Shown in pieces: positions 5,801 through 24,193 of a DNA stretch of 64,000 nucleotides. The notes beneath the pieces are model-generated. The model had not been told where the DNA came from and did no database searches. It saw only the letters and a list, made by a program, of their open reading frames with translations. The position numbers were made by a program, and so were the translations under genes. The stretch is from Deltaproteobacteria bacterium (lineage in GTDB: Bacteria; Desulfobacterota; Desulfobacteria; Desulfobacterales; C00003060): assembly GCA_019307135.1 (NCBI GenBank), contig JAFDKF010000003.1, positions 978 to 64,977 on the forward strand. Reading direction: 5' to 3'. The first letter of the stretch is position 1; each line of letters begins with the position of its first letter.

Positions 5801-6528
5801 TCAGCGATCCGGTCAAGCGCGGTTCGGCATCCTTCCGCCAGCAGACCCAGCGTAAGCTCACCGACCTCAAGAAGGAATTCCTGAAATTGTACCTAAGCTT
5901 GCACACCAAGGCTCGGCTTGGGGTAAATGAGGACAAGAGAAAAGCAGCCCTTACTACTGATGCCCGACTTGAAACGCTTAAGAAACTCGTCACGGTTGAC
6001 CTGATGCCTCGACAACAATTAATAGATTTTCAAGAAAGACTGAATAAGCTTCAAAGCTGCTTCGCACTCACCGAGCAAGAACTGGATGCTGCGCCCGTCT
6101 GCCCGCACTGCAATTATAAGCCCGCAGCGGAGCCATCGACGGCCAAGGCAAGCACACTTCTCGATGGTCTGGACGACGAACTCGACACCCTGGTAGCGAA
6201 CTGGACACAGACGCTCCTGACCAACCTGGAGGACCCGACCACCAAGGGCAATCTGAACCTGCTAAAGACCGAGCCAAAAAAATTGGTGAACGGCTTCATC
6301 AAGAAACGTTCCCTGCCTGACAAACTTGACCAAAATTTCATCCGTGCTTTGAGTGAAGTGCTTTCAGGTCTTCAGAAGGTTCCGATTAAGATCGCAGACT
6401 TACGGGCAGCGTTGTTATCCGGTGGTTCACCGGTTACACCTGCGGAGATGAAGCAGCGGTTTGAGGATTACCTTGACGAGCTAATCAAAGGAAAAGAGCC
6501 TGAGAAAGTCAGGATTATCCTGGAATAA
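2887..6528 (+). CDS. brxC: BREX ATPase BrxC/PglY
   Basis: 1213 aa with an N-terminal Walker [14 protein letters not shown]. Length and operon position are typical of BrxC/PglY. Confidence 0.75.
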
Positions 6529-6539
6529 GGACTCAATCG

Positions 6540-7715
6540 ATGAAGAAAAAATCAAAGAGATTACCAAAATCAAAGGATAGCCTTTTTGATCGTGTCGTAA
6601 CCATTCTGGAGCAAGCACGAACTAATGTTGTTCGTACCGTTAATAGCGAAATGGTGCTCGCCTACTGGCAGATCGGACGGGAGATCGTCCAGGAGCTTCA
6701 AAAGGGTGAGAATCGGGCTGAGTATGGCAAGCAAATTATTAAAGACCTTTCTGCAAAGTTGAATAAAAAATACGGAAGAGGATTCTCTTCAACAAATCTA
6801 TGGTATTTCAGGCAGTTCTATGTTGTGTACTCAAATCGGGAACCCAAGATTCGCCACAAGGCTTGTGGAGAATTGGTTTCCATGGAAAAACTCCACAAGC
6901 CTTGTGGAGTTTTGGATGATTTGAGCTTGGCAGTTGAAAAAAGTGAAGCCCTCCAAGGATTTTCACCACTATTAAGCTGGTCGCACTATCGCACATTGAG
7001 CAAGGTTGAGCATAAAAATGAACGTCTATTTTATGAGATTGAAGCCGAGAAAGAGGGCTGGAGCGTTCCTGTTTTGGAGCGGCAGATTCACTCTTTTCTT
7101 TTTGCGCGACTTCTGAAAAGCAGAGATAAAGACGGAGTTCTTGAGTTAGCAAAAGAAGGACAAGTTATAAAAACCCCGACCGATAGCATGAAAGATCCTT
7201 ATATCCTGGACTTTCTTGGTTTGCCTGATTCTAAGCAGATTCACGAATCAAAACTGGAATCTGCAATTATAGACAACATTCAGTCATTCCTTCTGGAGTT
7301 GGGAAAAGGCTTTGCTTTTGTCGCCCGACAAAAACGTCTTCAGTACGAAGACGAATTTTTGTATGTCGATCTTGTTTTTTATAACTGCATTCTGAAGTGC
7401 TACCTGCTGATTGACCTCAAGATTGCCAAACTCACCCATCAAGATATCGGTCAGATGGACAGCTATGTCCGCATGTTTGATGACCTTTTCATCGCCAAGG
7501 ATGATAATCCGACTATAGGTCTGATTCTCTGCTCTGAAAAGAACGAGGCCATTGCACGGTACTCCGTGCTTAACGACAGCAAACAGCTCTTTGCATCCAA
7601 GTACATGCTCTATCTGCCCACTGAAGAAGAACTACAGCGCGAGCTGGAGCGGGAACGACGGTTGATTGAAGAGAGACAGCAAGCGGGGGACCAAGGTGAC
7701 CAAGATAGTGACTAA
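6540..7715 (+). CDS. DUF1016/YhcG-like PD-(D/E)xK nuclease-family protein inserted between brxC and pglXI
   Basis: 391 aa. The N-terminus VVRTVNSEMVLAYWQIGREIV...YGKQIIKDLSAKL...FSSTNLWYFRQFY and the C-terminal YVDLVFYN...LLIDLKIAKL (D..D-x-K) resemble the YhcG family. It is AT-richer than the flanking BREX genes. Confidence 0.6.
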   Translation: MKKKSKRLPKSKDSLFDRVVTILEQARTNVVRTVNSEMVLAYWQIGREIVQELQKGENRAEYGKQIIKDLSAKLNKKYGRGFSSTNLWYFRQFYVVYSNREPKIRHKACGELVSMEKLHKPCGVLDDLSLAVEKSEALQGFSPLLSWSHYRTLSKVEHKNERLFYEIEAEKEGWSVPVLERQIHSFLFARLLKSRDKDGVLELAKEGQVIKTPTDSMKDPYILDFLGLPDSKQIHESKLESAIIDNIQSFLLELGKGFAFVARQKRLQYEDEFLYVDLVFYNCILKCYLLIDLKIAKLTHQDIGQMDSYVRMFDDLFIAKDDNPTIGLILCSEKNEAIARYSVLNDSKQLFASKYMLYLPTEEELQRELERERRLIEERQQAGDQGDQDSD

Positions 7716-7770: not shown

Positions 7771-10638
7771 ATGGCAAAACGTAAACAAACTTCAAGACCT
7801 TCTGAAAAGCTCTTTGCCGATGATCAAAGAGATCTATTTGAGAAGTCCTATGAAGAGCGGCTTAAGGAAGAAAAGAATAGGCCAGTGGAATGTCTCGGCA
7901 TGACCTTTGAGAACGACGAGAAGCGCCGGGAGTATTTCCTGGAGAAGCTACGCGAGAAGCTCAAGGACCCGGAGTTCCGCAAAATCGAGGGTTTCCCCAT
8001 TGGCTCGGACGAGGACATCCTGGCACTCTCTGATCCGCCGTACTACACGGCCTGCCCGAACCCGTTCATCGAGGATTTCATCAAGCAGTACGGAAAGCCG
8101 TATGACCCGGCTACCGATGATTATCGCCGTAAGCCCTTTGCCGCGGACACGGGCGCAGGGAAGACGCATCCCATCTACATGGCGCACTCGTACCATTCAA
8201 AGATTCCGCATCTGGCAATCATGCCCTGCATTCTGCATTACACCGAGCCGAGTGACATCGTGTTCGATGGATTTTCCGGTTCGGGGATGACAGGCGTTGC
8301 CGCCCAGTTGTGCGGACAGCCGGAGCCGGAGTTCAAGGCGTTACTGGAGAAGGATTGGAAGGATGCGGGCTATGGGGCGCCACAATGGGGTGTTCGCAGG
8401 CCGATACTGATGGATCTGTCACCCGTCGCTAATTTCATCGGGTACAACCTCAATCTTGCCCTTTCCGCCAGGGAGTTCAAAAAAGCCGGCCAGGCTTTTT
8501 TCAAGCAAATAGACGAAGAACTCGGCTGGATGTATGAAACGCTCCACACCGACGGCAAAACCAAGGGGCGTATCAACTATGTCGTCTGGTCGGAGGTCTT
8601 CACCTGCCCCAATTGCACTGGTGATGTGGTCTTCATGGAGCAGACCTACGATGCCAAGAGCGGGAAATTCACCAAGGAATACGAATGCCCGCACTGCAAG
8701 TCAGAAATGACCAACCGTAGTGCTGAACACAAGCTCACCACGCATTTTGACAAGGCCATCGGTGAAACCGTCCGCACCGTAACCTATCAGCCTGTCGAGA
8801 TCGAATACACGATTAGCGGAAACAAGGCCAAACACCGCAAGAAGCTCGACTCGGCGGACTTGGCTCTCATTGAAAGACTCAGGAACGAATTGCCCAAGGA
8901 CCGGTTCCCTTCCCAACCCATACCCGAGGAAATCTATCACTACTCGCGTCTTGAGCCGAAGGGCGTGACACATTTCCACCATTTCTATCTTCCCCGCGCT
9001 TTGCATGCACTTTCTGTCATGTGGCGTATTGCCGGGGAATGGCCAGATTCACGACTGCGAGGATTCTTAAAGTTTATGGTGGAGCAATGCTTTTGGGGCT
9101 TCTCTCTTTTAGCGAGATTCGTGCCGAGCCATTTCTCGCAGGTGAATCAATACCTCCCCAATGTCTACTATATTCCGCCATGCGTTGTTGAGATTTCGCC
9201 TTGGTACATATTGGATGGTAAGATCAAGCGTCTTCTAAAAATGCTCAAAGCTGAACAGCTTCCGCAATCATCTTACTTTTCCCAATCCACCACCTCGTCA
9301 TTGCAAACACCGATTCCCGATAGCAGTGTCGATTATGTCTATACCGACCTTCCCTTCGGCGACTTCGTGCCTTATGGCGATCTCAATCTGCTCATTGAAT
9401 CGTGGCACCAGGTGTTTGCCAATTTGCAGCATGAGGTTCTCGTTGATAAAAAACGGCAGAAAGCGGTGGATAAGTACGGTGTCATGATGAAGGAGGCATT
9501 TAGTGAACTCTACCGCATTATGAAGCCAAGTCGGTGGTCAACCATTGTTTTCCACAACTCGAAGAATGCGATCTGGAATGTCCTGCAAGATGCAATCGGC
9601 TCCGCCGGTTTCGTGATTGCCGATGCGCGAACCATGGACAGGGGCACAGGAAGTTACCGGCAATACACGGCTCAGATGGCAGTGAAGGCGGATGTCATTA
9701 TCTCCGCGTACAAACCGAATGGTGGACTCGAAGAGCGGTTCAAGCTTGAGGCCGGAACCGAGGACGGCGTCTGGGATTTCGTCCGCACGCACTTAAAGCA
9801 GCTCCCGATCTTCGTTTCCAAGGACGGACAGGCTGAAGTTATTGCCGAACGCCAAAACTACCTGCTCTTCGATCGAATGGTGGCATTTCACGTCCAGCGC
9901 GGTGTGACGGTTCCCGTGTCCGCCGCTGAGTTTTACGCGGGGCTTGAGCAGCGCTTTCCGCCACGTGACGGGATGTACTTCCTTCCAGACCAGGCGGCAG
10001 AGTATGACAAGAAGCGCATGACGGTGAGAGAGGTGCTCCAGCTTCAGCTTTTCGTCTCCGATGAAGCATCGGCCATCCAGTGGCTCAAGCAGCAGCTCAC
10101 CAAGAAACCGCAGACCTTCCAGGATATCCATCCGCAGTTCCTGAAAGAGATCGGCGGCTGGCAGAAGCATGAGAAGGCCCTGGAGCTTTCCGAACTGCTG
10201 GAACAAAACTTCCTGCGTTATGACGGCAAGGGCGAGGTTCCCAGCCAGATTCACAGCTACCTTTCCTCGAACTTCAAGGAGTTGCGCAACCTATCCAAGG
10301 ACGATCCTGCGCTCAAGGCCAAAGGCAAGGACCGCTGGTACGTGCCCGACCCGAACAAGGCTGGTGATCTGGAAAAGCTGCGCGAGCGGGCCCTGATGCG
10401 CGAGTTCGAGGAGTACCTGCCTGCGCCGAGGCTTCGGCAGGCAGGCCGTGAATCGAAACAGAAACGTCTGAAGGTGTTCCGTTTGGAGGCGGTTCGCTTT
10501 GGTTTCAAGAAGGCGTGGCAGGAGCGCGACTACGCAACTATCATCGCCGTGGCCTGCAAGATACCGGAAAAGATTCTCCAGGAGGACCCCAAACTCCTTA
10601 TGTGGTACGACCAGGCACTCACAAGGACAGGAGGTTGA
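7771..10638 (+). CDS. pglX: BREX type 3 DNA methyltransferase PglXI
   Basis: 955 aa. It has LSDPPYYTACPNPF, the SAM-binding FDGFSGSGMTGVAA, and a later YTDLPFGDF motif. It sits between brxC and the SNF2-like helicase. Confidence 0.7.
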   Translation: MAKRKQTSRPSEKLFADDQRDLFEKSYEERLKEEKNRPVECLGMTFENDEKRREYFLEKLREKLKDPEFRKIEGFPIGSDEDILALSDPPYYTACPNPFIEDFIKQYGKPYDPATDDYRRKPFAADTGAGKTHPIYMAHSYHSKIPHLAIMPCILHYTEPSDIVFDGFSGSGMTGVAAQLCGQPEPEFKALLEKDWKDAGYGAPQWGVRRPILMDLSPVANFIGYNLNLALSAREFKKAGQAFFKQIDEELGWMYETLHTDGKTKGRINYVVWSEVFTCPNCTGDVVFMEQTYDAKSGKFTKEYECPHCKSEMTNRSAEHKLTTHFDKAIGETVRTVTYQPVEIEYTISGNKAKHRKKLDSADLALIERLRNELPKDRFPSQPIPEEIYHYSRLEPKGVTHFHHFYLPRALHALSVMWRIAGEWPDSRLRGFLKFMVEQCFWGFSLLARFVPSHFSQVNQYLPNVYYIPPCVVEISPWYILDGKIKRLLKMLKAEQLPQSSYFSQSTTSSLQTPIPDSSVDYVYTDLPFGDFVPYGDLNLLIESWHQVFANLQHEVLVDKKRQKAVDKYGVMMKEAFSELYRIMKPSRWSTIVFHNSKNAIWNVLQDAIGSAGFVIADARTMDRGTGSYRQYTAQMAVKADVIISAYKPNGGLEERFKLEAGTEDGVWDFVRTHLKQLPIFVSKDGQAEVIAERQNYLLFDRMVAFHVQRGVTVPVSAAEFYAGLEQRFPPRDGMYFLPDQAAEYDKKRMTVREVLQLQLFVSDEASAIQWLKQQLTKKPQTFQDIHPQFLKEIGGWQKHEKALELSELLEQNFLRYDGKGEVPSQIHSYLSSNFKELRNLSKDDPALKAKGKDRWYVPDPNKAGDLEKLRERALMREFEEYLPAPRLRQAGRESKQKRLKVFRLEAVRFGFKKAWQERDYATIIAVACKIPEKILQEDPKLLMWYDQALTRTGG
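10416..10445. repeat. 30-nt palindromic element embedded in frame in pglXI (copy A)
   Basis: cctgcctgcgccgaggcttcggcaggcagg is the exact reverse complement of 15839-15868. It forms a 9-bp outer stem plus inner pairs and encodes LPAPRLRQAG. Confidence 0.85.
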
Positions 10639-10642
10639 TTCC

Positions 10643-13345
10643 ATGCTTATAGAAGTCATAACTGAGCTAAACGCTCCTAATACAGACAAGGGGAATCTAT
10701 TAGAAAACCTCGCTTCTGAATTTCTTAGGACGCAAGGTTATGAGGTGTCTTCTCAGGTTCGTGTTGCTGCATCTGAACTGGATTTGCTGTGCGAGCACAA
10801 GGTGTCAAAAAAACAAATATATGTAGAATGTAAAGCCCATAAAGATAATCTATCTGCCAAAGTTCTAGTCAATCTTCTTGGCACTGTTGATCTACACGAA
10901 TACTCGGAAGGATGGCTCGTAAGCACAGGCCCTTTGGGGCGAGATGCTAAAGGCTTTGTTGAAAAATGGGAGAATAAGCCTCCAGAAAAAAGGGAAAAAC
11001 TCTCCATATATAGTCCTGATCGTATATTGAATGCATTGTTAGACGCTAAAATAATCTCTTCAAAACCGGAATCTAAAGCGCAAGAAATGCTTTCTGGTCA
11101 TGATTTATCACTGGGCAAATGGATTTTGCTCATAACTCCATGGGGCAAATATTGGACCTGCCCGGTTTTAAAGGCTGGAGTGCCTAAATTCACCTCCTTT
11201 TTTGATGCATTGAATGGAAAGCCAGTAACCGATGAAGAATTCATTGATCGAGTTAAGTTAACTGATTTCAGTTTGAAAAATCTAGAGCCATTTGTCGCGT
11301 CAAGCCACGACGCACGTCAGGGAAATGACAATGCAGGGGGCGCTAAGTCCACTGCTGTTGTCGAGGTAGAATATGGCGAGAAGTGGTTTGACTATCGCCC
11401 AGCCAGACCGGAGCATTTTGTTGGTAGAAAGAATGAGCAACGAGAGCTACTGCAGTTTTTCACAAACATAAAGAATGGGAAAACGAACACACGCGTTTTT
11501 GCTATAAAAGGTGACTCTGGGATTGGAAAGAGTTCCTTGATTGCAAGGATACGTGATGTTACCAACAAGAGCCAAAAGCCAAACAACCTTTTTCTGTATG
11601 CAGTTGATGTTCGAGCTGCTAATGATTCTTCATACATCTATTCATCATTACTGGCAGCCCTTCGATCTGCTTCGCTGGATGGATTTGGAAGCAAGGAAGA
11701 ATTCGAGGTTACAGACTACATCGATCCTTTACAGAGCGAATCAATCAAATCTTTCTTAGACGGGTGTGAACGGAAACGCGAGATAGTAATTATTGTCTTC
11801 GATCAATTTGAGGAACTCTACTCAAAGGCTGAGTTGTTTTCTGTATTTGAAGAGGTCAAGAAACTGATGTTCTCTACTATTGCAGCATCTTCCAGTATTG
11901 TTCTTGGTTTTGCATGGAAAACAGATAGTACTGTCCCCCAGGATCACCCAGCTTATCATATGTGGCACCAATTGTCGGATCATCGATTTGAGATACTACT
12001 AAAGCCATTCAGCCACTCCGATGCTGAACAATCTCTCAGAATATTTGAGAACGAGTTGGGCGAAAAAATCCGTCCTGAACTTAGAAAGTACCTTTTAGAG
12101 AATAGCCAAGGATATCCTTGGCTTCTGAAGAAATTGTGTATTCATTTTTACGAACAACTACGGAGTGGTATAAGCCAACAGCAAATGGCAAACCGGTCAT
12201 TAGACATCTCTTCCTTATTTGACCAAGACTTGAATCATTTAACTGATGCTGAAATGGTGTGTTTAAAATTGGTAGCACAGAACGCCCCAATGGATTGGTA
12301 TGAAGTTCTTGAAATTGCTGGTCATGAAGTCGTTCAGTCTCTGCAAAACAAACGTGTACTGATTAAGCATGGGGATAAGCTTAACCTCTATTGGGACATA
12401 TTCAAAAATTATGTTTTATCTGGGATAATTCCATCGATTCCATTTACATATATTCCCCAATCACCATCGCTTAATGCATTATTGCATGTTTCATTAGAGC
12501 TTGATGATGCCGAAGGTAAGTCTATCAAAGAGTTGGCAGACAGTTCAAAACTTCAAGAGAGTACTGTTAGAAATATTATTCACGACTTGGAGCAATTTGG
12601 GGTTATTTATATCTCCAAAAGCGACATTACGATTGATAATCACCTGAGTAATTTAAATGCAAGGTCAATTCTATCTAGTATTAGACTGGTATTTAAGAGA
12701 CACGCACTTACTGAGATTTTAAAGAAAAACAATAGTGTAAAACCAGCCAATACAGATCAATTAATAAACTATCTAAAATCTATAAATCCTACAGCACAAT
12801 ATCATATTCGAACATGGACTACATATTCCAAAAGGATGTCTGCGTGGCTTCATGCATTTGGATTGATTACACAAACTACTAGTGGAATTATATATTCAGA
12901 TATTGGGGACATTGCTGGTGACGATATTAAAAAGTGGAGTGGTGAACGCAAACGAATAGTTTTCCTTGGAGATACATCACCTGTAAAAGTTGTGGAAGCA
13001 CTAGATCTTTTAAAAATGGGCGCAAAGGCACAAGTGAGCATGAAAAATATGGGATACCGTAATGCATGCGCCGTATTATATCGGTTCCGACTGTTAGAAC
13101 TAACTACGGCAGGCGAATATCGTGTTCCTGAGTGCAATATTACTGGTCGTTCATCGATGGAAGCTGTATGGGAAGAAGCCAGTAAAGAAGAGTCTCTCAA
13201 GCTGGTTATAAATAAACTCAAGGAAGGTACATTAATAAAACCACTGCAAATTGGGGAATTTGTTGCCGAGAGTTTCGGCAGGACCTGGAAAAAACTTCAT
13301 GGAAACGAATCGGGAATAGCCTTTGCCAATGGGCATTGTGGCTGA
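10643..13345 (+). CDS. Mrr-like restriction-endonuclease domain fused to a P-loop STAND/AAA-type NTPase and wHTH-like C-terminal region (BREX-embedded cargo 1)
   Basis: AGGAGG (10629-10634) sits 8 nt before the ATG at 10643. The N-terminus has GYEV...SELDLLCEH...IYVECK...WLVSTG (D-ExK, Mrr_cat-like). The centre has FVGRKNE...FAIKGDSGIGKSSL (Walker A) and IVIIVFDQFEEL (Walker B). The region is markedly AT-rich; a spot count on line 12361 gave 19/60 GC. Confidence 0.65.
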   Translation: MLIEVITELNAPNTDKGNLLENLASEFLRTQGYEVSSQVRVAASELDLLCEHKVSKKQIYVECKAHKDNLSAKVLVNLLGTVDLHEYSEGWLVSTGPLGRDAKGFVEKWENKPPEKREKLSIYSPDRILNALLDAKIISSKPESKAQEMLSGHDLSLGKWILLITPWGKYWTCPVLKAGVPKFTSFFDALNGKPVTDEEFIDRVKLTDFSLKNLEPFVASSHDARQGNDNAGGAKSTAVVEVEYGEKWFDYRPARPEHFVGRKNEQRELLQFFTNIKNGKTNTRVFAIKGDSGIGKSSLIARIRDVTNKSQKPNNLFLYAVDVRAANDSSYIYSSLLAALRSASLDGFGSKEEFEVTDYIDPLQSESIKSFLDGCERKREIVIIVFDQFEELYSKAELFSVFEEVKKLMFSTIAASSSIVLGFAWKTDSTVPQDHPAYHMWHQLSDHRFEILLKPFSHSDAEQSLRIFENELGEKIRPELRKYLLENSQGYPWLLKKLCIHFYEQLRSGISQQQMANRSLDISSLFDQDLNHLTDAEMVCLKLVAQNAPMDWYEVLEIAGHEVVQSLQNKRVLIKHGDKLNLYWDIFKNYVLSGIIPSIPFTYIPQSPSLNALLHVSLELDDAEGKSIKELADSSKLQESTVRNIIHDLEQFGVIYISKSDITIDNHLSNLNARSILSSIRLVFKRHALTEILKKNNSVKPANTDQLINYLKSINPTAQYHIRTWTTYSKRMSAWLHAFGLITQTTSGIIYSDIGDIAGDDIKKWSGERKRIVFLGDTSPVKVVEALDLLKMGAKAQVSMKNMGYRNACAVLYRFRLLELTTAGEYRVPECNITGRSSMEAVWEEASKEESLKLVINKLKEGTLIKPLQIGEFVAESFGRTWKKLHGNESGIAFANGHCG

Positions 13346-13451
13346 TGGCTCCTACAAATTCTGGAGGCCATATTCCAACTCCTCCAGGGCGTAAAACGAA
13401 CTCACAAGATAGTTCGCAACAAAGCTTGTTTGAGTTTTTTGGAGATGATAA

Positions 13452-13712
13452 GTGATAGAGTGTTGGCAGTATAGCACCATTCACGATTTCGTCTGCAAGG
13501 TTATCGAAACCCAGACGTTGTGGGACGATTCAACCTGCCGCGTCTGGCTGCCCGGTTCGGACTCCGTGGTGCGTATTCCGGCGGCCAATCTTAAACCGCT
13601 TGAGGACGCAACCAACATCGCCGTGGCACGCAAGATTCCAGAGAAGATTCTCCAGGAAGACCCCAAACTTCTAATGTGGTATGATCAGGCGGTAACAAGA
13701 ATGGGAGAGTAA
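13452..13712 (+). pseudogene. Fossil junction: brxHII 5' fragment fused in frame to a pglXI 3' fragment
   Basis: Residues CKVIETQTLWDDSTCRVWLPGSDSVVRIPAANLKPLED parallel the BrxHII N-terminus (CKVIESQTLWGETTCRVWIPGSDSLVRVPASRLSPLED, 15302-). Residues IAVARKIPEKILQEDPKLLMWYDQAVTRMGE parallel the PglXI C-terminus (IAVACKIPEKILQEDPKLLMWYDQALTRTGG, ending at 10638). Confidence 0.8.
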
Positions 13713-13715
13713 AAA

Positions 13716-14756
13716 ATGATAGAAGAAATCAAATTCGAAAATTTTACAGCCTTTAAGAAACTAAGAATCGAATTTTCACCTGGCATCAACATTTTTGTCG
13801 GAAGTAATGGGACGGGAAAAACCCATATTCTGAAAACTGTGTATGCGTCATGTGATATAACGAAATCAAAAAAGAACTTTGCTGAAAAAATATTACGGGT
13901 GTTTATGCCTTCAGCCAGCCAGCTTGGTAGATTGGTAAAACGCCAAAAGGTTAGCGCCAGAGGTTCTGTTGAAGTATTCCGTTCCGGTCCTGGCCTATTA
14001 GACACCGCAAAACTTCGCCTCTCTTTTTCCAATCATGCAACAAAAATAAAATCGGCCACCATTATCGGTGCGAACAATTGGTGCGCTATACCAATTGAAT
14101 CTGTATTTATTCCGGTTAAAGAGATGCTTTCCAACGCGCCTGGGTTTCACTCGATGTATAGCTTACGTGACGTTCATTTTGAAGAAGTGTACGCAGATAT
14201 TATTGACCGTGCTCTTTTGCCGCTTATGCGTGGGCCAGCGGATCGGGATCGAAAGAAGATATTATCGCATCTGCAAAAAGCAATGGAGGGCAAGGTCACA
14301 GTTAAAAACGAGGAGTTTTTTCTGCGAAATATACAGGGCAATCTTGAATTTTCTCTCCTTGCGGAAGGTATTCGAAAACTTGGTTTGCTTTGGGTCCTGA
14401 TCCAAAACGGCACATTACTAAAAGGGACAGTATTCTGCTGGGATGAGCCGGAAGCTAATCTAAATCCTAAGCTATTTCGGAATATTGTTGAGATTCTCTT
14501 AAGTCTTCAACGAATGGGCGTGCAAATATTCATTGCAACCCATGACTACGTTCTTCTAAAGGAATTCGATCTGCAAAAACAAGATAATGACAAGGTAAAA
14601 TTCCACTCTCTCTATCGTGATGAGGTAAGCAAAGAGATAAAAGAGCATCATACAGAAGATTATCTGCAAATTCATCCTAATACTATCCAAGATACTTTCA
14701 TTGATCTCTTTGACCGTGATGTAAAGCGTGACCTGGAGCTTTCAGCCAATGAATAA
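13716..14756 (+). CDS. ABC/SMC-type (AAA_21-like) ATPase (BREX-embedded cargo 2, gene A)
   Basis: 346 aa. Motifs are FVGSNGTGKTH (Walker A), LAEGIRKLGLL (signature-like), VFCWDEPEANLNP (Walker B/D-loop) and IFIATHD (H-loop). It starts 4 nt after the fossil pglXI stop. Confidence 0.7.
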   Translation: MIEEIKFENFTAFKKLRIEFSPGINIFVGSNGTGKTHILKTVYASCDITKSKKNFAEKILRVFMPSASQLGRLVKRQKVSARGSVEVFRSGPGLLDTAKLRLSFSNHATKIKSATIIGANNWCAIPIESVFIPVKEMLSNAPGFHSMYSLRDVHFEEVYADIIDRALLPLMRGPADRDRKKILSHLQKAMEGKVTVKNEEFFLRNIQGNLEFSLLAEGIRKLGLLWVLIQNGTLLKGTVFCWDEPEANLNPKLFRNIVEILLSLQRMGVQIFIATHDYVLLKEFDLQKQDNDKVKFHSLYRDEVSKEIKEHHTEDYLQIHPNTIQDTFIDLFDRDVKRDLELSANE

Positions 14757-15300
14757 GATGAAGATGCGAGAGGTCATTGAATCAGGCTTCAAGGTCACCC
14801 TATCCGAGGAGAACAGTTTCCGGTTTTGTGAAAGCTCTGCTTATCAGAGTCTTTCCGGCCTTAGCTTGAAAGAGATGGATGTCGGCTGGTGGAACACTAC
14901 CAATAGTAAGCTGTTCCTCCTTGAACTGAAGGGCCAAGAAATTTGGCGAGAATTCGACAAATCCGAAGACTTTGCCTACAAACACCTTGTGACAGCTATC
15001 AAGGGAAAGGTGACCGACGTTCTTTTGATGTTGGCCGCTGTCTGGGTTAAGACAGGTATTGGAAATGAGCTTAAAGCTCACATTCCTAACCCTGTTCATC
15101 AATATCGGGGAGAGGGCAGCATCAAGTTCATCTTTCTTATCGATACACCAGCCTCACGTCAATCCCTGCTGCTGCCGGTAAAGGATGCCATCAACAAGCA
15201 ACTCGCCGGACGGGTACGTCTTTTTGGCGTAAAGCATGTCACTCTGATCAATTTTGATGTAGCTCAAAAGATGGGGCTTCCCATAGAGAGACAGGCGTGA
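14749..15300 (+). CDS. Small protein with a PD-(D/E)xK-like motif (BREX-embedded cargo 2, gene B)
   Basis: The ATG at 14749 overlaps the ATPase stop (14754-14756), giving about 183 aa. It contains KEMDVGWWNTTNSKLFLLELKG (D...ExK spacing). Its stop at 15298-15300 is 1 nt before the brxHII ATG. I recognise no family with confidence. Confidence 0.5.
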   Translation: MNKMKMREVIESGFKVTLSEENSFRFCESSAYQSLSGLSLKEMDVGWWNTTNSKLFLLELKGQEIWREFDKSEDFAYKHLVTAIKGKVTDVLLMLAAVWVKTGIGNELKAHIPNPVHQYRGEGSIKFIFLIDTPASRQSLLLPVKDAINKQLAGRVRLFGVKHVTLINFDVAQKMGLPIERQA

Positions 15301-15301
15301 A

Positions 15302-18124
15302 ATGGACGTTGGCGACTGGTACTACACCCCCGACTACGGGCAGCTCTGTAAAGTCATCGAGTCCCAGACGCTTTGGGGCGAGACGACGTGCAGGGTGTGG
15401 ATACCCGGCAGTGATTCCTTAGTCCGTGTGCCTGCATCCAGACTCTCCCCCCTTGAGGATTCCGGGACGGGCACCGCTGATAGCATCGCCTATGTCGCCG
15501 CTGCTGCTCGGGTAGCCGATGCCCTGACCCAGGATATGCTTCTCGCGCCGATTGAATCATCTGTCATCCCGCTGCCACACCAGATTCGGGCGCTGTCCCG
15601 AGCCATCGCAGGTGACCGTGTGCGCTACCTGCTTGCCGATGAGGTAGGCTTGGGGAAGACCATCGAGGCCGGACTCATTCTGCGTGAGCTCAAGCTGCGC
15701 GGGCTGGCCAAGCGAACATTGGTTATCGCTCCAAAGGGCCTGGTGACTCAATGGGTGGCCGAGATGCGTACTCACTTTAACGAGGACTTTCGGCTGCTCA
15801 TCCCAAGCGATTTCTCGGCCTATCGACGCATCGCCAAACCTGCCTGCCGAAGCCTCGGCGCAGGCAGGGAGGACAACATCTGGCAGAGCCATCCGCAGGT
15901 GGTCTGTCCCATGGATTCGGTCAAGCCGCTGGAAAGTCGTCGCGGATGGTCGGATAAGCAGATGGCCGAATACAACCAGGAGCGGTTCGAGGACCTGATC
16001 TCCGCCGGCTGGGATCTGATTGTTGTGGACGAAGCCCACCGGCTCGGCGGCAGTACCGACCAGGTTGCCCGGTTCAAGCTGGGCCAGGGGCTTTCTGAGG
16101 CTGCACCGTATCTCTTGCTACTGTCGGCAACCCCTCACCAGGGTAAGACCGATGCTTTCCATAGGCTGGTATCTTTGATCGATAATCAGGCATTTCCTGA
16201 CGTGGGCAGCGTCACGCGGGATCGGGTCCAACATTATGTGATCCGGACCGAAAAGCGACGTGCTATCACGGCTGAAGGCAAGCCACTCTTCAAACCTCGT
16301 AAGACAGAGCTTGCTGCGGTCTCCTGGGAGGATCGGCATCAGGACCAGCGGCAGCTCTACGATGCGGTCACAGAGTATGTGCGGGAAGGTTACAACCAGG
16401 CCATGCGCGAGAAGCGCAGCTATATCGGGTTCCTCATGATCTTGATGCAGCGACTTGTAGTTTCCAGCACTAGCGCCATCCGCACTACGCTGGAACGCAG
16501 GCTGGATGCGCTTGAAGCACCGCAGGAGCAGCTGAGTCTATTTCCCATGTATTCCAACGAGGAATGGGCTGACCTTGACGGTCAGGAGCAAGTCGAAACG
16601 CTTCTGATCACTCGCCTGAAAGCGCTCAAAAACGAACGTGCCGAAGTAAAGCTGCTTCTCAATGCCGCCACCCGTTGCGAACAGGCGGGGGAGGATGTCA
16701 AGGCAGAGGCCCTGCTCGACTGGCTCTACCGTCTGCAGGCCGATGAAAACGACCCTGAACTGAAAGCCCTGGTATTCACCGAGTTTGTGCCGACCCAGCA
16801 GATGCTTCAGCAGTTCCTTTCTGAGCGTGGCTTTCCGGTTGCCTGCCTCAACGGCTCAATGGACATGGATGAGCGCAAAAAGGCCCAGGATACCTTTGCC
16901 GGGGAGGCACGCATTCTCATCTCTACCGATGCAGGCGGCGAGGGTCTGAATTTGCAGTTTTGCCACGTGGTGATCAATTACGACATTCCCTGGAACCCGA
17001 TGCGGCTTGAACAGCGCATCGGCCGGGTGGATCGTATCGGCCAAAACCATGTGGTGCGCGCCGTTAATTTCGTTTTTGAGGATTCGGTGGAGCACCGTGT
17101 ACGGGAAGTGCTGGAGGAGAAGCTTGCGGTTATCTTCGAGGAGTTCGGTATCGACAAGACGGGTGACGTACTCGACTCGGCCCAGGCTGGACAAATCTTT
17201 GATGACTTACATGTGGAGGCCATCCTCAACCCGAATGAGATCGACACATCTGTGGACAAGGTCATCGCTCGTTTGCAGGAACAGGCCCGAGATGCGAAGG
17301 CGAGTTCATCTGTCCTGGGAGCCACAGAGGACCTGGAACCATCTGAAGCCCAACGACTTATGACCCACCCCTTACCACACTGGGTCGAACGGATGACAGT
17401 GAGCTATCTTAATGCTCACGGCGGCAAAGCTGAGCGGAAACGACGGACCTGGGACTTGACGTGGCCGGACGGCGAAACAACTGCCAAGGTCGTCTTCAGC
17501 GGCAAGGAAGCAGACCAATCCCCCACAGCCCGCCACTTGACATTGGAGGATTCCAGGGTTCGGGGGCTGGCCACGAGATTGCCTCGTTTTGTTCCAGGGC
17601 AGCCGATCTCCGTTGTCACAATCCCAGGGATCACCGACGAGGTTACTGGCCTATGGTCTCTCTGGCAGATCGGCATCACAACGATGGAATGGAATCGCCA
17701 CCGGATCATGCCTTTATTCATAGCTGATGGCGGGAATATTTTTGCCCCAGCCGCCAGGCATCTCTGGGACAAGCTTTTGGGTGTGACGCCTAATGTCCGG
17801 ACGCATCTTGACATGGACGAATCCAAGGAAGCCTTCGATAGACTGGCAGGGATTGCAGAAGAGCAAGGACGAACCATCTACGATGAGCTTGTTCAAGAAC
17901 ACCGGTCGCGTCTGACCCGAGAAAGAGAAAAAGGGGAATATGCCTTCGCTGCCAGGCGTAGTGTCATCGAACGAGTCGGCCTTCCCCAGGTACGCGACCA
18001 TCGGTTGACCCTCCTGCGGCAGGAAGAGCAAGCGTGGAACGAGGATCTTAAGCTGAAAGCACAAGTGTATCCGGAAATGGTGCCTCTTATCGTTATCCGC
18101 GTGGAAGGAGGTGCCAATGAGTAG
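15302..18124 (+). CDS. brxHII: BREX type 3 SNF2/DEAD-like helicase BrxHII
   Basis: 940 aa with LLADEVGLGKT (motif I), VVDEAHRLG (DEAH), LSATPHQGK, LISTDAGGEGLNLQ and EQRIGRVDRIGQ (motif VI). Confidence 0.75.
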   Translation: MDVGDWYYTPDYGQLCKVIESQTLWGETTCRVWIPGSDSLVRVPASRLSPLEDSGTGTADSIAYVAAAARVADALTQDMLLAPIESSVIPLPHQIRALSRAIAGDRVRYLLADEVGLGKTIEAGLILRELKLRGLAKRTLVIAPKGLVTQWVAEMRTHFNEDFRLLIPSDFSAYRRIAKPACRSLGAGREDNIWQSHPQVVCPMDSVKPLESRRGWSDKQMAEYNQERFEDLISAGWDLIVVDEAHRLGGSTDQVARFKLGQGLSEAAPYLLLLSATPHQGKTDAFHRLVSLIDNQAFPDVGSVTRDRVQHYVIRTEKRRAITAEGKPLFKPRKTELAAVSWEDRHQDQRQLYDAVTEYVREGYNQAMREKRSYIGFLMILMQRLVVSSTSAIRTTLERRLDALEAPQEQLSLFPMYSNEEWADLDGQEQVETLLITRLKALKNERAEVKLLLNAATRCEQAGEDVKAEALLDWLYRLQADENDPELKALVFTEFVPTQQMLQQFLSERGFPVACLNGSMDMDERKKAQDTFAGEARILISTDAGGEGLNLQFCHVVINYDIPWNPMRLEQRIGRVDRIGQNHVVRAVNFVFEDSVEHRVREVLEEKLAVIFEEFGIDKTGDVLDSAQAGQIFDDLHVEAILNPNEIDTSVDKVIARLQEQARDAKASSSVLGATEDLEPSEAQRLMTHPLPHWVERMTVSYLNAHGGKAERKRRTWDLTWPDGETTAKVVFSGKEADQSPTARHLTLEDSRVRGLATRLPRFVPGQPISVVTIPGITDEVTGLWSLWQIGITTMEWNRHRIMPLFIADGGNIFAPAARHLWDKLLGVTPNVRTHLDMDESKEAFDRLAGIAEEQGRTIYDELVQEHRSRLTREREKGEYAFAARRSVIERVGLPQVRDHRLTLLRQEEQAWNEDLKLKAQVYPEMVPLIVIRVEGGANE
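15839..15868. repeat. 30-nt palindromic element embedded in frame in brxHII (copy B, inverted relative to copy A)
   Basis: cctgcctgccgaagcctcggcgcaggcagg is the reverse complement of 10416-10445. Here it encodes PACRSLGAGR. Confidence 0.85.
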
Positions 18125-20123: not shown

Positions 20124-20935
20124 ACGTACGGGCAAGCCAAATCGGGTTCAGCCAACGCATCCGCCTTGAATGGCTTGAACAGACAGCTAACCTTGTATTG
20201 GCTGGAAACGATAAAACTGAAATCAACGATTCTCTCCAGGAACTGCTGAAGAATAAGGTCTCCATCGGAGGTGAAGCCATCCGGGGCAATCGAGAGAAGG
20301 TCATCTCCATCCTTATGAAGACATGGCTCACCGTACCCCGCGGCTTGGAAGCACTCCGCGATGAAGGCTTGCAGATACATCAGGGGCTGCCTCGTAAAGA
20401 CCGCATTGCTGTTCACTGGGGCATGGCATTGGCCGCTTATCCGTTCTGGGGTGCGGTCGCCGCGCACACCGGTCGCCTGCTGCGACTTCAGGGAACGGCT
20501 GCGGCAGCCCACGTTCAGCGTAGAGTTAAAGAACAATACGGAGAGCGCGAAACCGCCTCCCGGGCAGCCCGGCGTGTCTTAAGGTCATTCATCGACTGGA
20601 ACGTCCTGAATGAGACGGATGATAAAGGCGTATACGCCCAGGGTATTCGCTATTCGATTCAAGACCCCAGGCTCATTTCCTGGATGGTGGAGGCGTCTTT
20701 GCACGCCCGCGCAAACGGTTCCGCCGCCACCAAAGACTTACTCGATGGCCCAAGTATATTTCCCTTTCGCCTGGCGCACATCACTGCAGAGCACTTGGCA
20801 TCTTTATCGCCTCGTCTGGACTTATTACGGCACGGCTTGGATGAGGATCTGATGATGCTGAGACAAAGAGACCGGCAAGTGAACGGAAAGACAAAGGAGT
20901 TTGAGGGTGGTCCATGGGCAAACGCAAAATCATAA
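20120..20935 (+). CDS. BREX-associated protein in the brxA position (BrxA-like, positional call only)
   Basis: 271 aa with an ATGA overlap with the pglZ stop. It is the last gene of the operon, where type 3 BREX carries brxA. I cannot verify a DUF1819 signature by eye. Confidence 0.4.
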   Translation: MNVRASQIGFSQRIRLEWLEQTANLVLAGNDKTEINDSLQELLKNKVSIGGEAIRGNREKVISILMKTWLTVPRGLEALRDEGLQIHQGLPRKDRIAVHWGMALAAYPFWGAVAAHTGRLLRLQGTAAAAHVQRRVKEQYGERETASRAARRVLRSFIDWNVLNETDDKGVYAQGIRYSIQDPRLISWMVEASLHARANGSAATKDLLDGPSIFPFRLAHITAEHLASLSPRLDLLRHGLDEDLMMLRQRDRQVNGKTKEFEGGPWANAKS

Positions 20936-22685: not shown

Positions 22686-22734
22686 CATTTGTGTTGAAAG
22701 TTGAGACCTGACCCCGTAATATGACCCCGTAATA
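22665..22734. repeat. 15-bp-stem hairpin (GGGTCAGGTCTCAAC/GTTGAGACCTGACCC) followed by a tandem 13-mer TGACCCCGTAATA x2
   Basis: Read directly: arms at 22665-22679 and 22700-22714, direct 13-mers at 22709-22721 and 22722-22734. Confidence 0.8.
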
Positions 22735-22833
22735 CCTACAGTCGCCGCGCCGTTAGGCCGACCAACAACATTGTGGATGTGCAATTGTAAAGTTGGTGGT
22801 TGGCGTGATCCAAGAGCTTTGGGAGGAAACACA

Positions 22834-23637: not shown

Positions 23638-23730
23638 GTGCCTAACAATGCGTTTGCACACTGACCGGCTTTATCGTGCGGCCTTTGAATGGTTTTGCAG
23701 TGCACAGTTTTGGGCTATCAACAATATTTA

Positions 23731-23845
23731 AGGCGCCCCCCGCCGGCAGGTGAAACGCGCCGTTGGCGGAGCTGAGCCTTCGGCTCCCAGCGCCTGGTAG
23801 TCGCTTCGCTCCGGTCCTATCGGCGCGGCGGCTGTGGCCACCCGC
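23731..23845. other. 115-nt GC-rich, hairpin-dense island (candidate structured RNA or element end, unassigned)
   Basis: A sharp composition jump. It contains GAGCC-TTC-GGCTC, CCGCC...GGCGG and GCGCC...GGCGC pairings. It has no convincing ORF. Confidence 0.3.
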
Positions 23846-23998: not shown

Positions 23999-24057
23999 TA
24001 GTTATAGCATTCACCAGGACAGAATCCAGGGCTATTATGAACTACATGGTAATGAGT

Positions 24058-24129: not shown

Positions 24130-24193
24130 CCAAATATTTCGGACCTCGATGGAAAGATCAAGACCAAAGAACCCCACACGTTAAAGGTGCGCT

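What the first reader, a model, noticed from the sequence alone, without database searches (positions are those of the whole stretch)
10643..13345. 900-aa Mrr-like nuclease - P-loop STAND/AAA NTPase - wHTH fusion inserted directly after pglXI
Seen: the ORF has its own AGGAGG RBS 4 nt after the pglXI stop. The N-terminal domain carries a restriction-endonuclease D...ExK pattern (ELDLLCEH / YVECK / WLVSTG). The central NTPase has FVGRKNE-x-GDSGIGKSS and hhhhDQFEE. The C-terminal ~450 aa has two winged-helix-like stretches rather than obvious TPRs. The AT-rich composition is very different from the BREX genes; spot counts on single 60-nt lines gave 19/60 GC at 12361 versus 38/60 at 16981. Established: the nuclease-effector plus STAND NTPase plus C-terminal sensor layout is that of Avs/AVAST-type antiviral NTPases. 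Inference: this is a compact single-gene Avs-like defence protein with an atypical, possibly DNA-binding, sensor region, riding in a BREX operon.
Basis: partly seen in the sequence, partly recalled or inferred. Interest (0 to 1): 0.72.

Follow-up and report, generated by a model that had tools for sequence, protein, structure and literature searches.

The report
Frameshifted nuclease–STAND defence gene inside BREX
This gene belongs to a widespread, unnamed family of candidate single-gene anti-phage proteins (DNA-cutting domain, ATP-driven switch, array of winged-helix domains) lodged in a cargo slot of a type 3 BREX operon, but this copy has lost its conserved C-terminus to a one-base deletion.

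Summary
The ORF and all quoted motifs are present at 10643-13345. However, the 900-aa length results from a frameshift. An A6 run at 13289-13294 is A7 in three close relatives. The true gene runs to 13455 (937 aa), and the lost part is conserved across the family.

The protein has an intact Mrr-type PD-(D/E)xK nuclease, a small beta domain, a P-loop NTPase that passes Pfam nSTAND1, a helical domain and five winged-helix modules. It has no TPRs. The best PDB fold match is Avs4, but ORC/Cdc6-type ATPases score nearly as well. No PADLOC or NCBIfam defence model matches seven diverse family members.

The family has more than 1,256 homologues across many phyla and no conserved partner gene. Its neighbours are rich in defence genes. 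The window's clade sits in the pglXI|brxH slot of type 3 BREX in 14 of 16 loci, sometimes where the helicase is missing.

Best reading: an Avs-like, ATP-switched nuclease that triggers abortive infection or restriction and uses a nucleic-acid-type sensor. It is carried as embedded cargo and is probably inactive here. It is a new variant of a known kind and is untested experimentally. About half of the close relatives end in QxSLF, which resembles a beta-clamp-binding motif.

The parts
10629..10634 (+). AGGAGG Shine-Dalgarno, 8 nt before the ATG. It lies inside the last codons of pglXI (stop 10636-10638).
   Evidence: sequence read directly
10643..13345 (+). The ORF as it stands: 900 aa. The last 16 residues (885-900, LHGNESGIAFANGHCG) are out-of-frame junk.
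10643..13455 (+). Full extent of the gene (937 aa if the A run were A7, as in relatives).
10643..11032 (+). Mrr-type PD-(D/E)xK nuclease domain (aa 1-130), predicted alpha-beta-beta-beta-alpha-beta core.
   Evidence: Pfam Mrr_cat 44.1 bits against cut-off 21. Secondary structure in the AF2 model.
10775..10834 (+). Catalytic motif E45-x-D47 ... E62-C-K64.
   Evidence: Invariant in 113 of 113 aligned homologues.
11045..11317 (+). Small beta-rich domain (aa ~135-225, conserved G158, W171, G179) of unknown role, followed by a disordered linker.
   Evidence: AF2 model, pLDDT 87-93 over aa 150-200 and below 50 over aa 223-236; alignment.
11390..12007 (+). P-loop NTPase domain (aa 250-455). Motifs: hhGRxxE 259-265 (nt 11417-11437), Walker A 290-298 (nt 11510-11536), Walker B 383-391 (nt 11789-11815), invariant R448.
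   Evidence: Pfam nSTAND1 33.5 bits (cut-off 27.1) and AAA_16 36.7 bits (cut-off 32.6). Invariant residues.
12014..12235 (+). Helical domain after the NTPase (aa 458-531), with invariant G490-Y-P492-W493 (nt 12110-12121).
12245..12427 (+). First winged-helix domain (aa 535-595), in the position of a STAND/ORC winged-helix domain.
12440..13356 (+). Sensor region: four further winged-helix-like modules (aa 600-668, 673-755, 779-832, 838-905). The last helix (aa 884-902) is the part thrown out of frame.
   Evidence: AF2 models (C-terminal model pLDDT 91.3). Pfam MarR/RPA_C weak hits at 619-660. Foldseek best hit is SelB WH1-4, E 4.6e-3. WH3-5 are net basic.
13289..13294 (+). A6 homopolymer, the frameshift site. 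Close relatives carry A7.
13294..13455 (+). Remainder in the -1 frame (TSWKRIGNSLCQWALWLMAPTNSGGHIPTPPGRKTNSQDSSQQSLFEFFGDDK*), which matches the C-terminus of intact homologues.
13417..13431 (+). QQSLF, the C-terminal QxxLF motif (out of frame in this copy).
13452..13715 (+). 86-aa chimeric scar ORF. Residues 5-53 resemble a BrxH helicase N-terminus (61% to the window's own BrxH). Residues 53-85 resemble the PglXI C-terminal tail (88%). It marks the junction between two stacked cargo cassettes.
7771..10638 (+). Context: pglXI (type 3 BREX methyltransferase), left border of the cargo slot.
13716..15300 (+). Context: HEC-02A (ABC/OLD-type ATPase) and HEC-02B, the second cargo cassette in the same slot.
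   Evidence: 2.9e-130 and 1.4e-39. HEC-02 was shown to defend in 10.1101/2024.01.29.577857.
15302..18124 (+). Context: BrxH SNF2-type helicase, right border of the slot.

Best explanation
**Identity.** The gene belongs to a large, unnamed family of ~900-940-aa single-chain proteins. Each has an N-terminal catalytically competent Mrr-type PD-(D/E)xK nuclease, a small beta domain, a STAND/ORC-class P-loop NTPase (Pfam nSTAND1) with helical and winged-helix domains, and a C-terminal array of four more winged-helix modules.

**Proposed mechanism (inferred by analogy with Avs and other STAND immune ATPases).**
- The protein rests as an auto-inhibited monomer.
- The winged-helix array binds an infection cue. 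The cue is more likely a nucleic acid or nucleoprotein feature than a large phage protein.
- Nucleotide-dependent oligomerisation brings the nuclease domains together.
- DNA is then cut, which stops the phage with or without killing the cell.

**Location and state here.**
- The gene works alone, since it has no conserved partner gene.
- It travels as AT-rich cargo. The clade to which the window copy belongs lives in the pglXI|brxH slot of type 3 BREX operons and would act there as a second layer of defence.
- In this window a 1-nt deletion in an A run removes the last conserved helix and the tail. The copy is probably inactive unless the deletion is a sequencing error or is bypassed by rare -1 slippage.

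**Shown:** architecture, residue conservation, family size, genomic contexts, the frameshift. **Inferred:** defence role, trigger, oligomerisation, cleavage.
For: - **Domains.** Mrr_cat, nSTAND1 and AAA_16 all score above Pfam cut-offs.
- **Catalytic residues.** E45, D47, E62, K64, G293, G295, K296, S297, S298, D387, E390, E391 and R448 are invariant in 113 homologues of 44-90% identity.
- **Structure.** The AF2 model has pLDDT 85.5 and the described domain order. Foldseek against PDB gives Avs4 (8dgf_B, E 3e-8) as the top hit, aligned over 956 columns. The C-terminal model has pLDDT 91.3 and matches only tandem winged-helix arrays that bind nucleic acids, such as SelB and N.BspD6I, and only weakly. 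WH3-5 are net basic.
- **Family size.** More than 1,256 hits. The sensor module defines 620 clusters at 50% identity, always at the same position in ~890-970-aa proteins.
- **Distribution.** 70 loci in species representatives of many phyla.
- **No partner gene.** No neighbour family is shared beyond local synteny.
- **Defence neighbourhood.** Neighbours include PglXI/PglZ/BrxA, HmaC/DUF499, type II/IIG methyltransferases, mad2/mad3, pAgo, TmtA, DpdF and a type I REase. Others include SIR2, PIN and CBASS genes.
- **BREX slot.** 14 of 16 near-clade loci sit directly after pglXI.
- **Embedded genes as defence candidates.** Genes embedded in BREX, Hma and RM systems have been validated as defences by 'guilt by embedding' (10.1101/2024.01.29.577857).
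- **Frameshift.**
Against: - No member of the family has been tested, and no defence HMM recognises it.
- The NTPase has AAA+/ORC-like traits: an invariant Arg at the base of strand 5, a K-T-D sensor-1 region, and weak Orc1/Cdc6 HMM hits. ORC/Cdc6 and RuvB folds score close to Avs4. Ring-type AAA+ behaviour, rather than STAND-type switching, is therefore possible.
- The sensor is small and moderately conserved (mean column conservation 0.50-0.56), unlike the large TPR sensors of Avs.
- No effector swapping was seen, although it is typical of Avs/NLR-like families.
- The near-obligate BREX location of the near clade, including helicase-less operons, could mean functional integration rather than independence.
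Confidence: 0.55

Rival explanations
1. It is an NTP-dependent type IV-like restriction enzyme. The winged-helix array reads modified or otherwise unusual phage DNA directly, and the NTPase drives assembly or translocation, as in McrBC or SauUSI. The Mrr-type domain then cuts that DNA without killing the host. In a BREX operon it would complement BREX, which acts on unmodified DNA, as BrxU/GmrSD does.
For: - Mrr_cat is the catalytic domain of modification-dependent Mrr enzymes.
- Plasmid and genome records name homologues 'restriction endonuclease'.
- There is no cognate methyltransferase in standalone contexts such as B. vietnamiensis pBVIE01.
- The family recurs next to methylation-based systems: BREX type 3, DUF1156/DUF499 Hma-type and MADS genes.
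- WH3-5 are basic and the C-terminal array resembles DNA/RNA-reading winged-helix arrays.
- BrxU is a precedent for a type IV enzyme embedded in BREX (PMC8565348, seen; discussed).
Against: - No known modified-base reader (SRA, EVE/PUA, YTH, DUF3427-type) was detected by Pfam.
- The NTPase is of the STAND/ORC class rather than a McrB-type GTPase or a helicase.
- The top fold match is an abortive-infection sensor, Avs4.
Confidence: 0.22
2. In the BREX-resident clade the protein is a working part of type 3 BREX: an auxiliary or primary nuclease effector that can stand in for the BrxH helicase. It is not an independent system.
For: - 14 of 16 near-clade loci lie directly after pglXI, often with overlapping or 4-nt-spaced stop and start codons.
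- Four operons (L002, L003, L007, L009) read BrxF-BrxC-X-PglXI-target-PglZ-BrxA with no helicase.
- L077 keeps only a 55-aa helicase stub before PglZ.
- A survey found BrxHII in only 77% of type 3 BREX and proposed embedded nucleases as auxiliary effectors (PMC12839542).
Against: - Most of the family, including members 69% identical (L001, L005), lies outside BREX, often with no methyltransferase nearby.
- In the BREX-resident loci checked, the gene is about 7-19 GC points below its BREX neighbours. This fits mobile cargo.
- The brxH'-'pglXI scars show cassette shuffling.
- The four helicase-less loci form two pairs of related genomes, so there are few independent events.
Confidence: 0.12
3. 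In this genome the gene is simply a decaying pseudogene with no present function, whatever its relatives do.
For: - The one-base deletion sits in a homopolymer that is A7 in three independent close relatives.
- The lost helix (GNxLRQWAxW, with W897 and W900 nearly invariant) is conserved even in 30%-identical members.
- About 11 kb of neighbouring BREX genes show no frameshift. Pervasive homopolymer sequencing error is therefore not evident.
- P0008 is another C-terminally frameshifted member.
Against: - A single homopolymer indel is also the commonest assembly error.
- The rest of the ORF (884 codons) is intact, and the downstream frame is still 97% identical to L075 at the DNA level. Any inactivation is therefore very recent.
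- A -1 slip on the A run would restore WKKTSWKR.
Confidence: 0.4
4. It is a STAND-type transcription regulator (MalT/AfsR-like) that uses its winged-helix domains to control neighbouring genes.
For: - AAA_16 and weak AfsR and MarR/Lrp/Csa3-type HTH matches.
- Two JGI records name homologues as transcriptional regulators.
Against: - The invariant nuclease catalytic residues have no place in a regulator.
- There is no conserved target operon, because neighbourhoods differ between loci.
- The contexts are defence islands.
Confidence: 0.03

Closest known systems
Avs4 / antiviral STAND NTPases (EcAvs4, PDB 8DGF)
   Same: - Same order of parts: N-terminal Mrr-type nuclease effector, central P-loop NTPase with helical and winged-helix domains, C-terminal sensor.
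- It is the best whole-model fold match (E 3e-8).
- It is also a single-gene system found in defence islands.
   Different: - There is no sequence-level match: PDB profile search is empty for Avs and no PADLOC or NCBIfam Avs model hits.
- Size is ~937 aa against 1,534 residues in the 8dgf_B chain.
- The sensor is a ~310-aa winged-helix array instead of a large TPR-like domain that grips phage portal or terminase.
- The trigger is unknown.
nSTAND1 (Pfam PF20703; Kaur et al. 2021, PMC8195603)
   Same: The NTPase scores above the Pfam gathering cut-off in the window protein and in all homologues checked. The clade was defined in predicted counter-invader systems.
   Different: That paper describes nSTAND1 with Death-like and effector-associated adaptor domains and repeat sensors. 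This REase + 5xwHTH architecture is not described in the passages read.
Mrr and other type IV restriction nucleases; BrxU/GmrSD as BREX-embedded type IV enzymes
   Same: It has the same Mrr_cat catalytic domain with D...ExK. It is an embedded second-layer gene in BREX, like BrxU.
   Different: Domain order is reversed: the nuclease is N-terminal and the DNA-binding-type domains are C-terminal. It adds a STAND/ORC-class NTPase. No modified-base reader was detected.
Orc1/Cdc6 and the archaeal 'ATPase_2' family (paby2304, PDB 2QEN)
   Same: It shares an AAA+-type P-loop domain preceded by hhGRxxE and followed by a lid and a winged helix. Fold matches are E 3e-7 to 2e-6. There are weak TIGR02928 hits. 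R448 at the base of strand 5 resembles an arginine finger.
   Different: It scores 20-25 bits against a cut-off of 181 for Orc1/Cdc6. It is fused to a nuclease and four extra winged helices. It lies in defence islands, not at replication origins.
HEC-02 and other 'embedded' defence cassettes (Payne et al. 2024 preprint)
   Same: It occupies the same kind of position, nested inside a multi-gene methylation-based system. In this window it shares the slot with HEC-02.
   Different: It is an unrelated protein, is absent from PADLOC v2.0.0 models, and is not validated.

Membership tests
PD-(D/E)xK nuclease, Mrr_cat (PF04471) | Match to the family profile above the curated cut-off | tested here: met
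   44.1 bits against a cut-off of 21, aa 20-108.
PD-(D/E)xK nuclease, Mrr_cat (PF04471) | Catalytic D ... (D/E/Q)xK on strands 2 and 3 of an alpha-beta-beta-beta-alpha-beta core | tested here: met
   D47 lies at the start of strand 48-52 and E62-C-K64 at the end of strand 58-64 in the model. All are invariant in 113 sequences.
NA-iREase1 (PF22722, inactive REase) | Loss of catalytic residues | tested here: not met
   The score is borderline (27.3 bits against a cut-off of 27), but the catalytic E/D/E/K are invariant. It should not be filed as inactive.
STAND NTPase, nSTAND1 (PF20703) | Match above the Pfam gathering score | tested here: met
   33.5 bits against 27.1 in the window protein. Scores are 32.5-50.3 bits in ten distant members.
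STAND NTPase, nSTAND1 (PF20703) | Intact Walker A and Walker B | tested here: met
   GDSGIGKSS (290-298) and hhhhDQFEE (383-391). G293, G295, K296, S297, S298, D387, E390 and E391 are invariant.
STAND NTPase, nSTAND1 (PF20703) | Helical domain with GxP motif, then a winged-helix domain after the P-loop domain (own knowledge of Leipe et al. 2004) | tested here: met
   G490-Y-P492 is invariant. The model shows helices 458-531 followed by wHTH 535-595.
STAND NTPase, nSTAND1 (PF20703) | Phylogenetic placement inside STAND rather than ORC/Cdc6-type AAA+ | tested here: inconclusive
   The Avs4 and NLRP folds match, but ORC/Cdc6, RuvB and RFC folds are close behind. Weak Orc1/Cdc6 HMM hits recur. No tree could be built for lack of reference sequences.
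Avs (Avs1-5 / AVAST) | Match to a family HMM | tested here: not met
   No Avs model in PADLOC v2.0.0 or NCBIfam 20.0 matches at E<=0.01 (window) or E<=0.001 (seven family members).
Avs (Avs1-5 / AVAST) | Tripartite layout: effector, STAND NTPase, C-terminal sensor | tested here: met
Avs (Avs1-5 / AVAST) | TPR-like sensor that binds a conserved phage protein (terminase, portal) | tested here: not met
   The sensor is a winged-helix array with no TPR in Pfam or in the models. Ligand binding itself is not testable here.
Avs (Avs1-5 / AVAST) | Ligand-induced oligomerisation and anti-phage activity | not testable with these tools
   Requires experiments.
Orc1/Cdc6 replication initiators | Match to TIGR02928 above cut-off | tested here: not met
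   19.5-24.7 bits against a cut-off of 181.3.
Type 3 BREX core component | Present as a conserved gene of type 3 BREX and confined to it | tested here: not met
   The type 3 core is BrxF, BrxC, PglXI, BrxH, PglZ and BrxA (PMC12839542). The family is mostly outside BREX: 5 of the 70 genome loci plus L002 and L003 are in BREX.
Type IV (modification-dependent) restriction enzyme | Domain that reads modified bases, and cleavage that depends on modification | tested here: inconclusive
   No SRA, EVE or similar domain in Pfam. The role of the winged-helix array and of the 135-225 beta domain is unknown. Activity is not testable here.
Beta-sliding-clamp-binding proteins | Terminal QL[SD]LF-type pentapeptide after a disordered linker (own knowledge of the consensus) | tested here: inconclusive
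   Q..LF occurs in the last 20 aa of 57 of 110 close homologues against 3 of 848 control ORFs, with consensus Q-[LP]-S-L-F-[DE]. It is absent from the gammaproteobacterial and distant clades. It is out of frame in the window. Binding is untested.

The most novel reading that the evidence does not exclude
The family would be a new class of STAND/ORC-type immune nuclease that senses nucleic acid, not phage protein, through a winged-helix array.

In the window's clade it would be tethered to the replisome by a C-terminal QL[SD]LF-type beta-clamp-binding tail. It would then survey replicating DNA and cut when foreign replication is detected.

In some type 3 BREX operons it would take over the place, and perhaps the role, of the BrxH helicase.
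Probability: 0.15. Interest if true: 0.8.

Novelty: new variant of a known kind. Interest (0 to 1): 0.55.

Why it matters
- **A missing defence candidate.** If the family defends, it adds a widespread single-gene system that current defence-finding tools miss. It has more than 1,200 homologues in many phyla. Its sensor is built from winged helices rather than repeats, which points to a different kind of infection cue from that of the known Avs proteins.
- **A cargo hotspot.** The recurring brxH'-'pglXI scars show how cargo cassettes are stacked and swapped in one defined slot of type 3 BREX. This gives 'guilt by embedding' a concrete recombination footprint.
- **Helicase-less operons.** These operons offer a natural test of whether type 3 BREX needs its helicase.
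- **This copy.** The main practical point is that it is frameshifted and should not be cloned as it stands.

Tried and rejected
- **Sequence search of solved structures.** The single protein and the 113-sequence profile gave nothing significant. The link to Avs4 is by fold only.
- **PADLOC and NCBIfam.** Scans of the window protein and seven diverse relatives gave only weak local P-loop or nuclease hits. Membership of a named defence family is rejected.
- **Conserved partner gene.** All-against-all clustering of 1,054 neighbour ORFs found none beyond lineage-specific synteny. A multi-gene system is rejected.
- **Effector swapping.** A profile of the sensor module against 1.84 billion representatives found the module only in the same architecture. 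Shorter hits lack Mrr_cat but may be fragments. This is not resolved.
- **C-terminal fold search.** No match reached E<=1e-3, so there is no specific functional analogue.
- **Own promoter or terminator.** Consensus scans were at or below chance. The gene is probably co-transcribed with BREX.
- **E. coli genomes and phage genomes.** No match.
- **Literature.** Six searches found no paper that names this architecture.
- **Source organism.** The source organism of the window was not identified.


Full report
**Observation**

An ATG-initiated ORF occupies 10643-13345 on the + strand and encodes 900 aa.
- ELDLLCEH (E45, D47), YVECK (E62, K64) and WLVSTG in the nuclease domain.
- FVGRKNE (259-265), GDSGIGKSS (290-298) and IIVFDQFEE (383-391) in the NTPase.

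The two spot GC counts are exact: 19/60 at 12361 and 38/60 at 16981. The gene has 0.402 GC, against 0.52-0.57 for the BREX core genes.

One detail is wrong. The AGGAGG (10629-10634) lies inside the end of pglXI, ahead of its TGA (10636-10638). It is the ATG that starts 4 nt after that stop.

**The frameshift**

Homologues are ~925-940 aa and match the window protein only up to residue ~884. The window sequence then reads WKK|LHGNESG...*, whereas relatives read WKKTSWKRIGNSL....

The -1 frame of the window encodes exactly that missing C-terminus, down to TGA 13453-13455. The break is an A6 run at 13289-13294.
- The 90%-identical orthologue L075 is 97% identical in DNA across this stretch and has A7 there.
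- L083 and L111 also have A7. No fetched locus has A6.

The gene is therefore 10643-13455 and would encode 937 aa. The lost part includes:
- the final helix (GNxLRQWAxW), which is conserved even in 30%-identical members;
- an IPxPPGR motif;
- the tail.

About 11 kb of neighbouring BREX genes are uninterrupted, so pervasive homopolymer error is not evident. A single assembly error cannot be excluded. A -1 slip on the A run would restore the frame, but nothing suggests this is programmed.

**Anatomy**

*Profile matches.* Pfam gives Mrr_cat (44.1 bits, aa 20-108), AAA_16 (36.7) and nSTAND1 (33.5). All three are above their cut-offs. There are also weak MarR/RPA_C winged-helix hits at 619-660.

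*Whole-protein model.* An AlphaFold model of the intact orthologue P0002 was built with a 113-sequence alignment. It has mean pLDDT 85.5. The domain order is:
- a PD-(D/E)xK core (aa 1-130);
- a small beta domain (~150-190);
- a disordered linker;
- a P-loop domain (250-455);
- a helical domain (458-531);
- five winged-helix-like modules (535-595, 600-668, 673-755, 779-832, 838-905);
- a disordered tail.

*Conservation.* In 113 homologues of 44-90% identity the following residues are invariant:
- nuclease: E45, D47, E62, C63, K64;
- Walker A: G293, G295, K296, S297, S298;
- Walker B: D387, Q388, F389, E390, E391;
- R448, and G490/P492/W493.

The borderline NA-iREase1 ('inactive REase') hit therefore does not apply.

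*Fold matches.*
- Whole model against PDB: Avs4 bound to portal is the top hit (8dgf_B, E 3e-8). It is followed by paby2304, Orc1/Cdc6, NLRP9, NLRP3, Apaf-1 and RuvB.
- C-terminal 343 residues modelled alone: pLDDT 91.3. Only weak matches were found, all to tandem winged-helix arrays or repressors (SelB WH1-4 at E 4.6e-3, RPC62, N.BspD6I, NsrR).

WH3-5 are net basic. The sensor region is less conserved than the enzymatic core: 0.50-0.56 against 0.70-0.72 mean column conservation.

**Family and contexts**

*Size and naming.*
- The word-indexed protein search gave more than 1,256 hits. All are unnamed or generically named.
- A profile of the sensor module alone found 620 clusters at 50% identity. 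The module is always at ~590-905 of ~890-970-aa proteins.
- Shorter hits lack Mrr_cat but may be fragments.
- Plasmid records call homologues 'restriction endonuclease', 'AAA family ATPase' or 'ATP-binding protein'.
- One homologue stands alone on a conjugative Burkholderia plasmid.
- No phage genome carries the gene.

*Distribution.* Seventy loci in species-representative genomes span many groups. They include Thermodesulfobacteriota, Latescibacterota, Poribacteria, Verrucomicrobia, Acidobacteriota, Chloroflexota, Paenibacillus, Campylobacterota and many Gammaproteobacteria.

*Neighbours.* Clustering of 1,054 neighbour ORFs found no gene shared across the family. The protein should therefore work alone. 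The immediate neighbours are rich in defence families:
- PglXI, PglZ and BrxA;
- HmaC/DUF499;
- type II and IIG methyltransferases;
- mad2 and mad3;
- pAgo, TmtA, DpdF and a type I REase;
- SIR2, PIN and CBASS genes in one locus.

*No named family.* No PADLOC v2.0.0 or NCBIfam 20.0 model recognises the window protein or seven diverse relatives beyond weak local hits.

**The BREX slot**

The window carries a complete type 3 BREX:

| Gene | Coordinates |
|---|---|
| BrxF | 2376-2852 |
| BrxC | 2887-6528 |
| PglXI | 7771-10638 |
| BrxH | 15302-18124 |
| PglZ | 18111-20123 |
| BrxA-like | 20120-20935 |

Three AT-rich cargo units are nested in it:
- a DUF1016/YhcG nuclease (PDC-S02) between brxC and pglXI;
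- the target;
- HEC-02AB. The last two both lie between pglXI and brxH.

Between the target and HEC-02A lies an 86-aa chimeric ORF (13452-13712). Its first half is a BrxH N-terminus, 61% identical to the window's own. Its second half is a PglXI C-terminal tail, 88% identical. This is the footprint of two alternative cargo cassettes, each with its flanks, being stacked by recombination.

Comparable footprints follow the target in other loci:
- L079 and L080 carry BrxH-stub and PglXI-tail remnants.
- L077 keeps only a 55-aa helicase stub before PglZ.

Among relatives at least 62% identical, 14 of 16 loci with context sit directly after pglXI. Four of them (L002, L003, L007, L009) have no helicase, so the target occupies its place. 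They form two pairs of related genomes, so independent events are few. A published survey found the helicase in 77% of type 3 BREX (PMC12839542).

In the 16 loci checked, across many hosts, the gene stays at 0.33-0.43 GC. Flanking GC is usually 0.47-0.59, with lower values on one side in L001 (0.43) and L048 (0.38).

**Mechanism**

The best-supported reading is an Avs-like single-chain immune nuclease:
- It is auto-inhibited at rest.
- It is switched on when the winged-helix array meets an infection cue.
- It assembles through the NTPase so that the Mrr-type domains can cut DNA.

What is shown is the architecture, the intact active sites, the family's spread and its defence-island and embedded contexts. 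The trigger, oligomerisation and cleavage are inferred from Avs biology. Avs proteins oligomerise on target recognition (abstract of PMC13601566; PDB 8DGF).

Rival readings:
- **Type IV-like restriction (0.22).** This rests on the Mrr-type domain, the basic winged helices and the recurrent company of methylation-based systems.
- **Integration into BREX as a helicase substitute (0.12).**
- **Pseudogene in this genome (0.40).** This question is separate and cuts across the others.

Whether the NTPase is STAND proper or ORC/Cdc6-like is open. It passes nSTAND1. It also has an Arg at the base of strand 5 and weak Orc1/Cdc6 hits.

**C-terminal tail**

Of 110 full-length close homologues, 57 have Q..LF within the last 20 residues, against 3 of 848 control ORFs. 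The consensus is Q-[LP]-S-L-F-[DE], and it follows a disordered linker. From my own knowledge this matches the bacterial beta-clamp-binding pentapeptide QL[SD]LF.

The motif is absent from the gammaproteobacterial and more distant clades. It is out of frame in the window. This is a lead, not a finding.

**Verdict**

The finding is real but needs correction. It is a frameshifted member of a large, unnamed nuclease-NTPase-winged-helix family. The family is Avs-like in layout, is not a member of Avs1-5, and is resident as cargo in a recombination hotspot of type 3 BREX. I rate it a new variant of a known kind, with interest 0.55.

Noticed in passing
window 13452-13715: An 86-aa chimeric ORF. A BrxH helicase N-terminus (61% to the window's own BrxH) is fused in frame to a PglXI C-terminal tail (88%). 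It ends 1 nt before the HEC-02A start. It is a recombination scar showing that two cargo cassettes were stacked in the pglXI|brxH slot.
   Followed up: yes
L079:3537-3770; L080:3954-4094 and 6539-6628; L077:3366-3530: Similar BrxH-stub and PglXI-tail remnants follow the target gene in L079 and L080. L077 has a helicase stub directly before PglZ. The slot therefore looks like a recurrent hotspot for cassette exchange and for helicase loss.
   Followed up: partly
L002, L003, L007, L009 (target at 8001-10793 or 10001-12796): These type 3 BREX operons read BrxF-BrxC-X-PglXI-target-PglZ-BrxA and have no BrxH helicase or remnant of it. They form two pairs of related genomes.
   Followed up: partly
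window 13716-15300: A HEC-02A/HEC-02B pair (ABC/OLD-type ATPase plus NERD-like partner; PADLOC 2.9e-130 and 1.4e-39). This system was validated when found embedded in Hma. Here it is embedded in type 3 BREX.
   Followed up: partly
window 6540-7715: A DUF1016_N + YhcG PD-(D/E)xK nuclease (PADLOC candidate PDC-S02, 4.3e-141), AT-rich (0.435), nested between brxC and pglXI. Relatives carry a PLD-like or Schlafen/HATPase_c_4/Fic-like gene in the same position.
   Followed up: partly
window 13417-13431 (out of frame); C-termini of P0001-P0120: A terminal Q-[LP]-S-L-F-[DE] motif occurs in 57 of 110 close homologues against 3 of 848 control ORFs. It resembles the beta-sliding-clamp-binding pentapeptide. 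It is absent from the gammaproteobacterial and distant clades.
   Followed up: partly
target gene in L001-L079 (16 loci): The gene has 0.33-0.43 GC in all 16 loci checked. Flanks are usually 0.47-0.59 (lower on one side in L001 and L048). AT-richness is therefore a property of the family, not only a sign of recent transfer here.
   Followed up: partly
window 20914-23637: Directly after the BREX operon lie a HamA-domain protein (PF08878, 2e-17), an unannotated 308-aa ORF and an endonuclease/exonuclease/phosphatase-family protein. These may be a further defence unit.
   Followed up: no
window 26794-29401: An AbiJ-type protein (AbiJ_NTD3 + Abi_C) and a HATPase_c_4 + wHTH protein (Schlafen/AlbA-associated type). 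The defence island continues beyond BREX.
   Followed up: no
window 23640-26790: A ~3 kb stretch with no ORF over 180 aa and GC skew up to +0.33. It contains a perfect 54-bp x2.8 tandem repeat (23849-24010) and a perfect 24-bp palindrome (24058-24109) related to two 36-bp repeats at 25239-25310. It also has 93-bp and 54-bp dispersed repeats. It has no Rfam match. It looks like decayed or repeated small gene fragments.
   Followed up: partly
P0008 (901 aa): A second family member with a frameshifted C-terminus about 10 residues upstream of the window's break. Its cause (sequencing error or a real mutation) is unknown.
   Followed up: no
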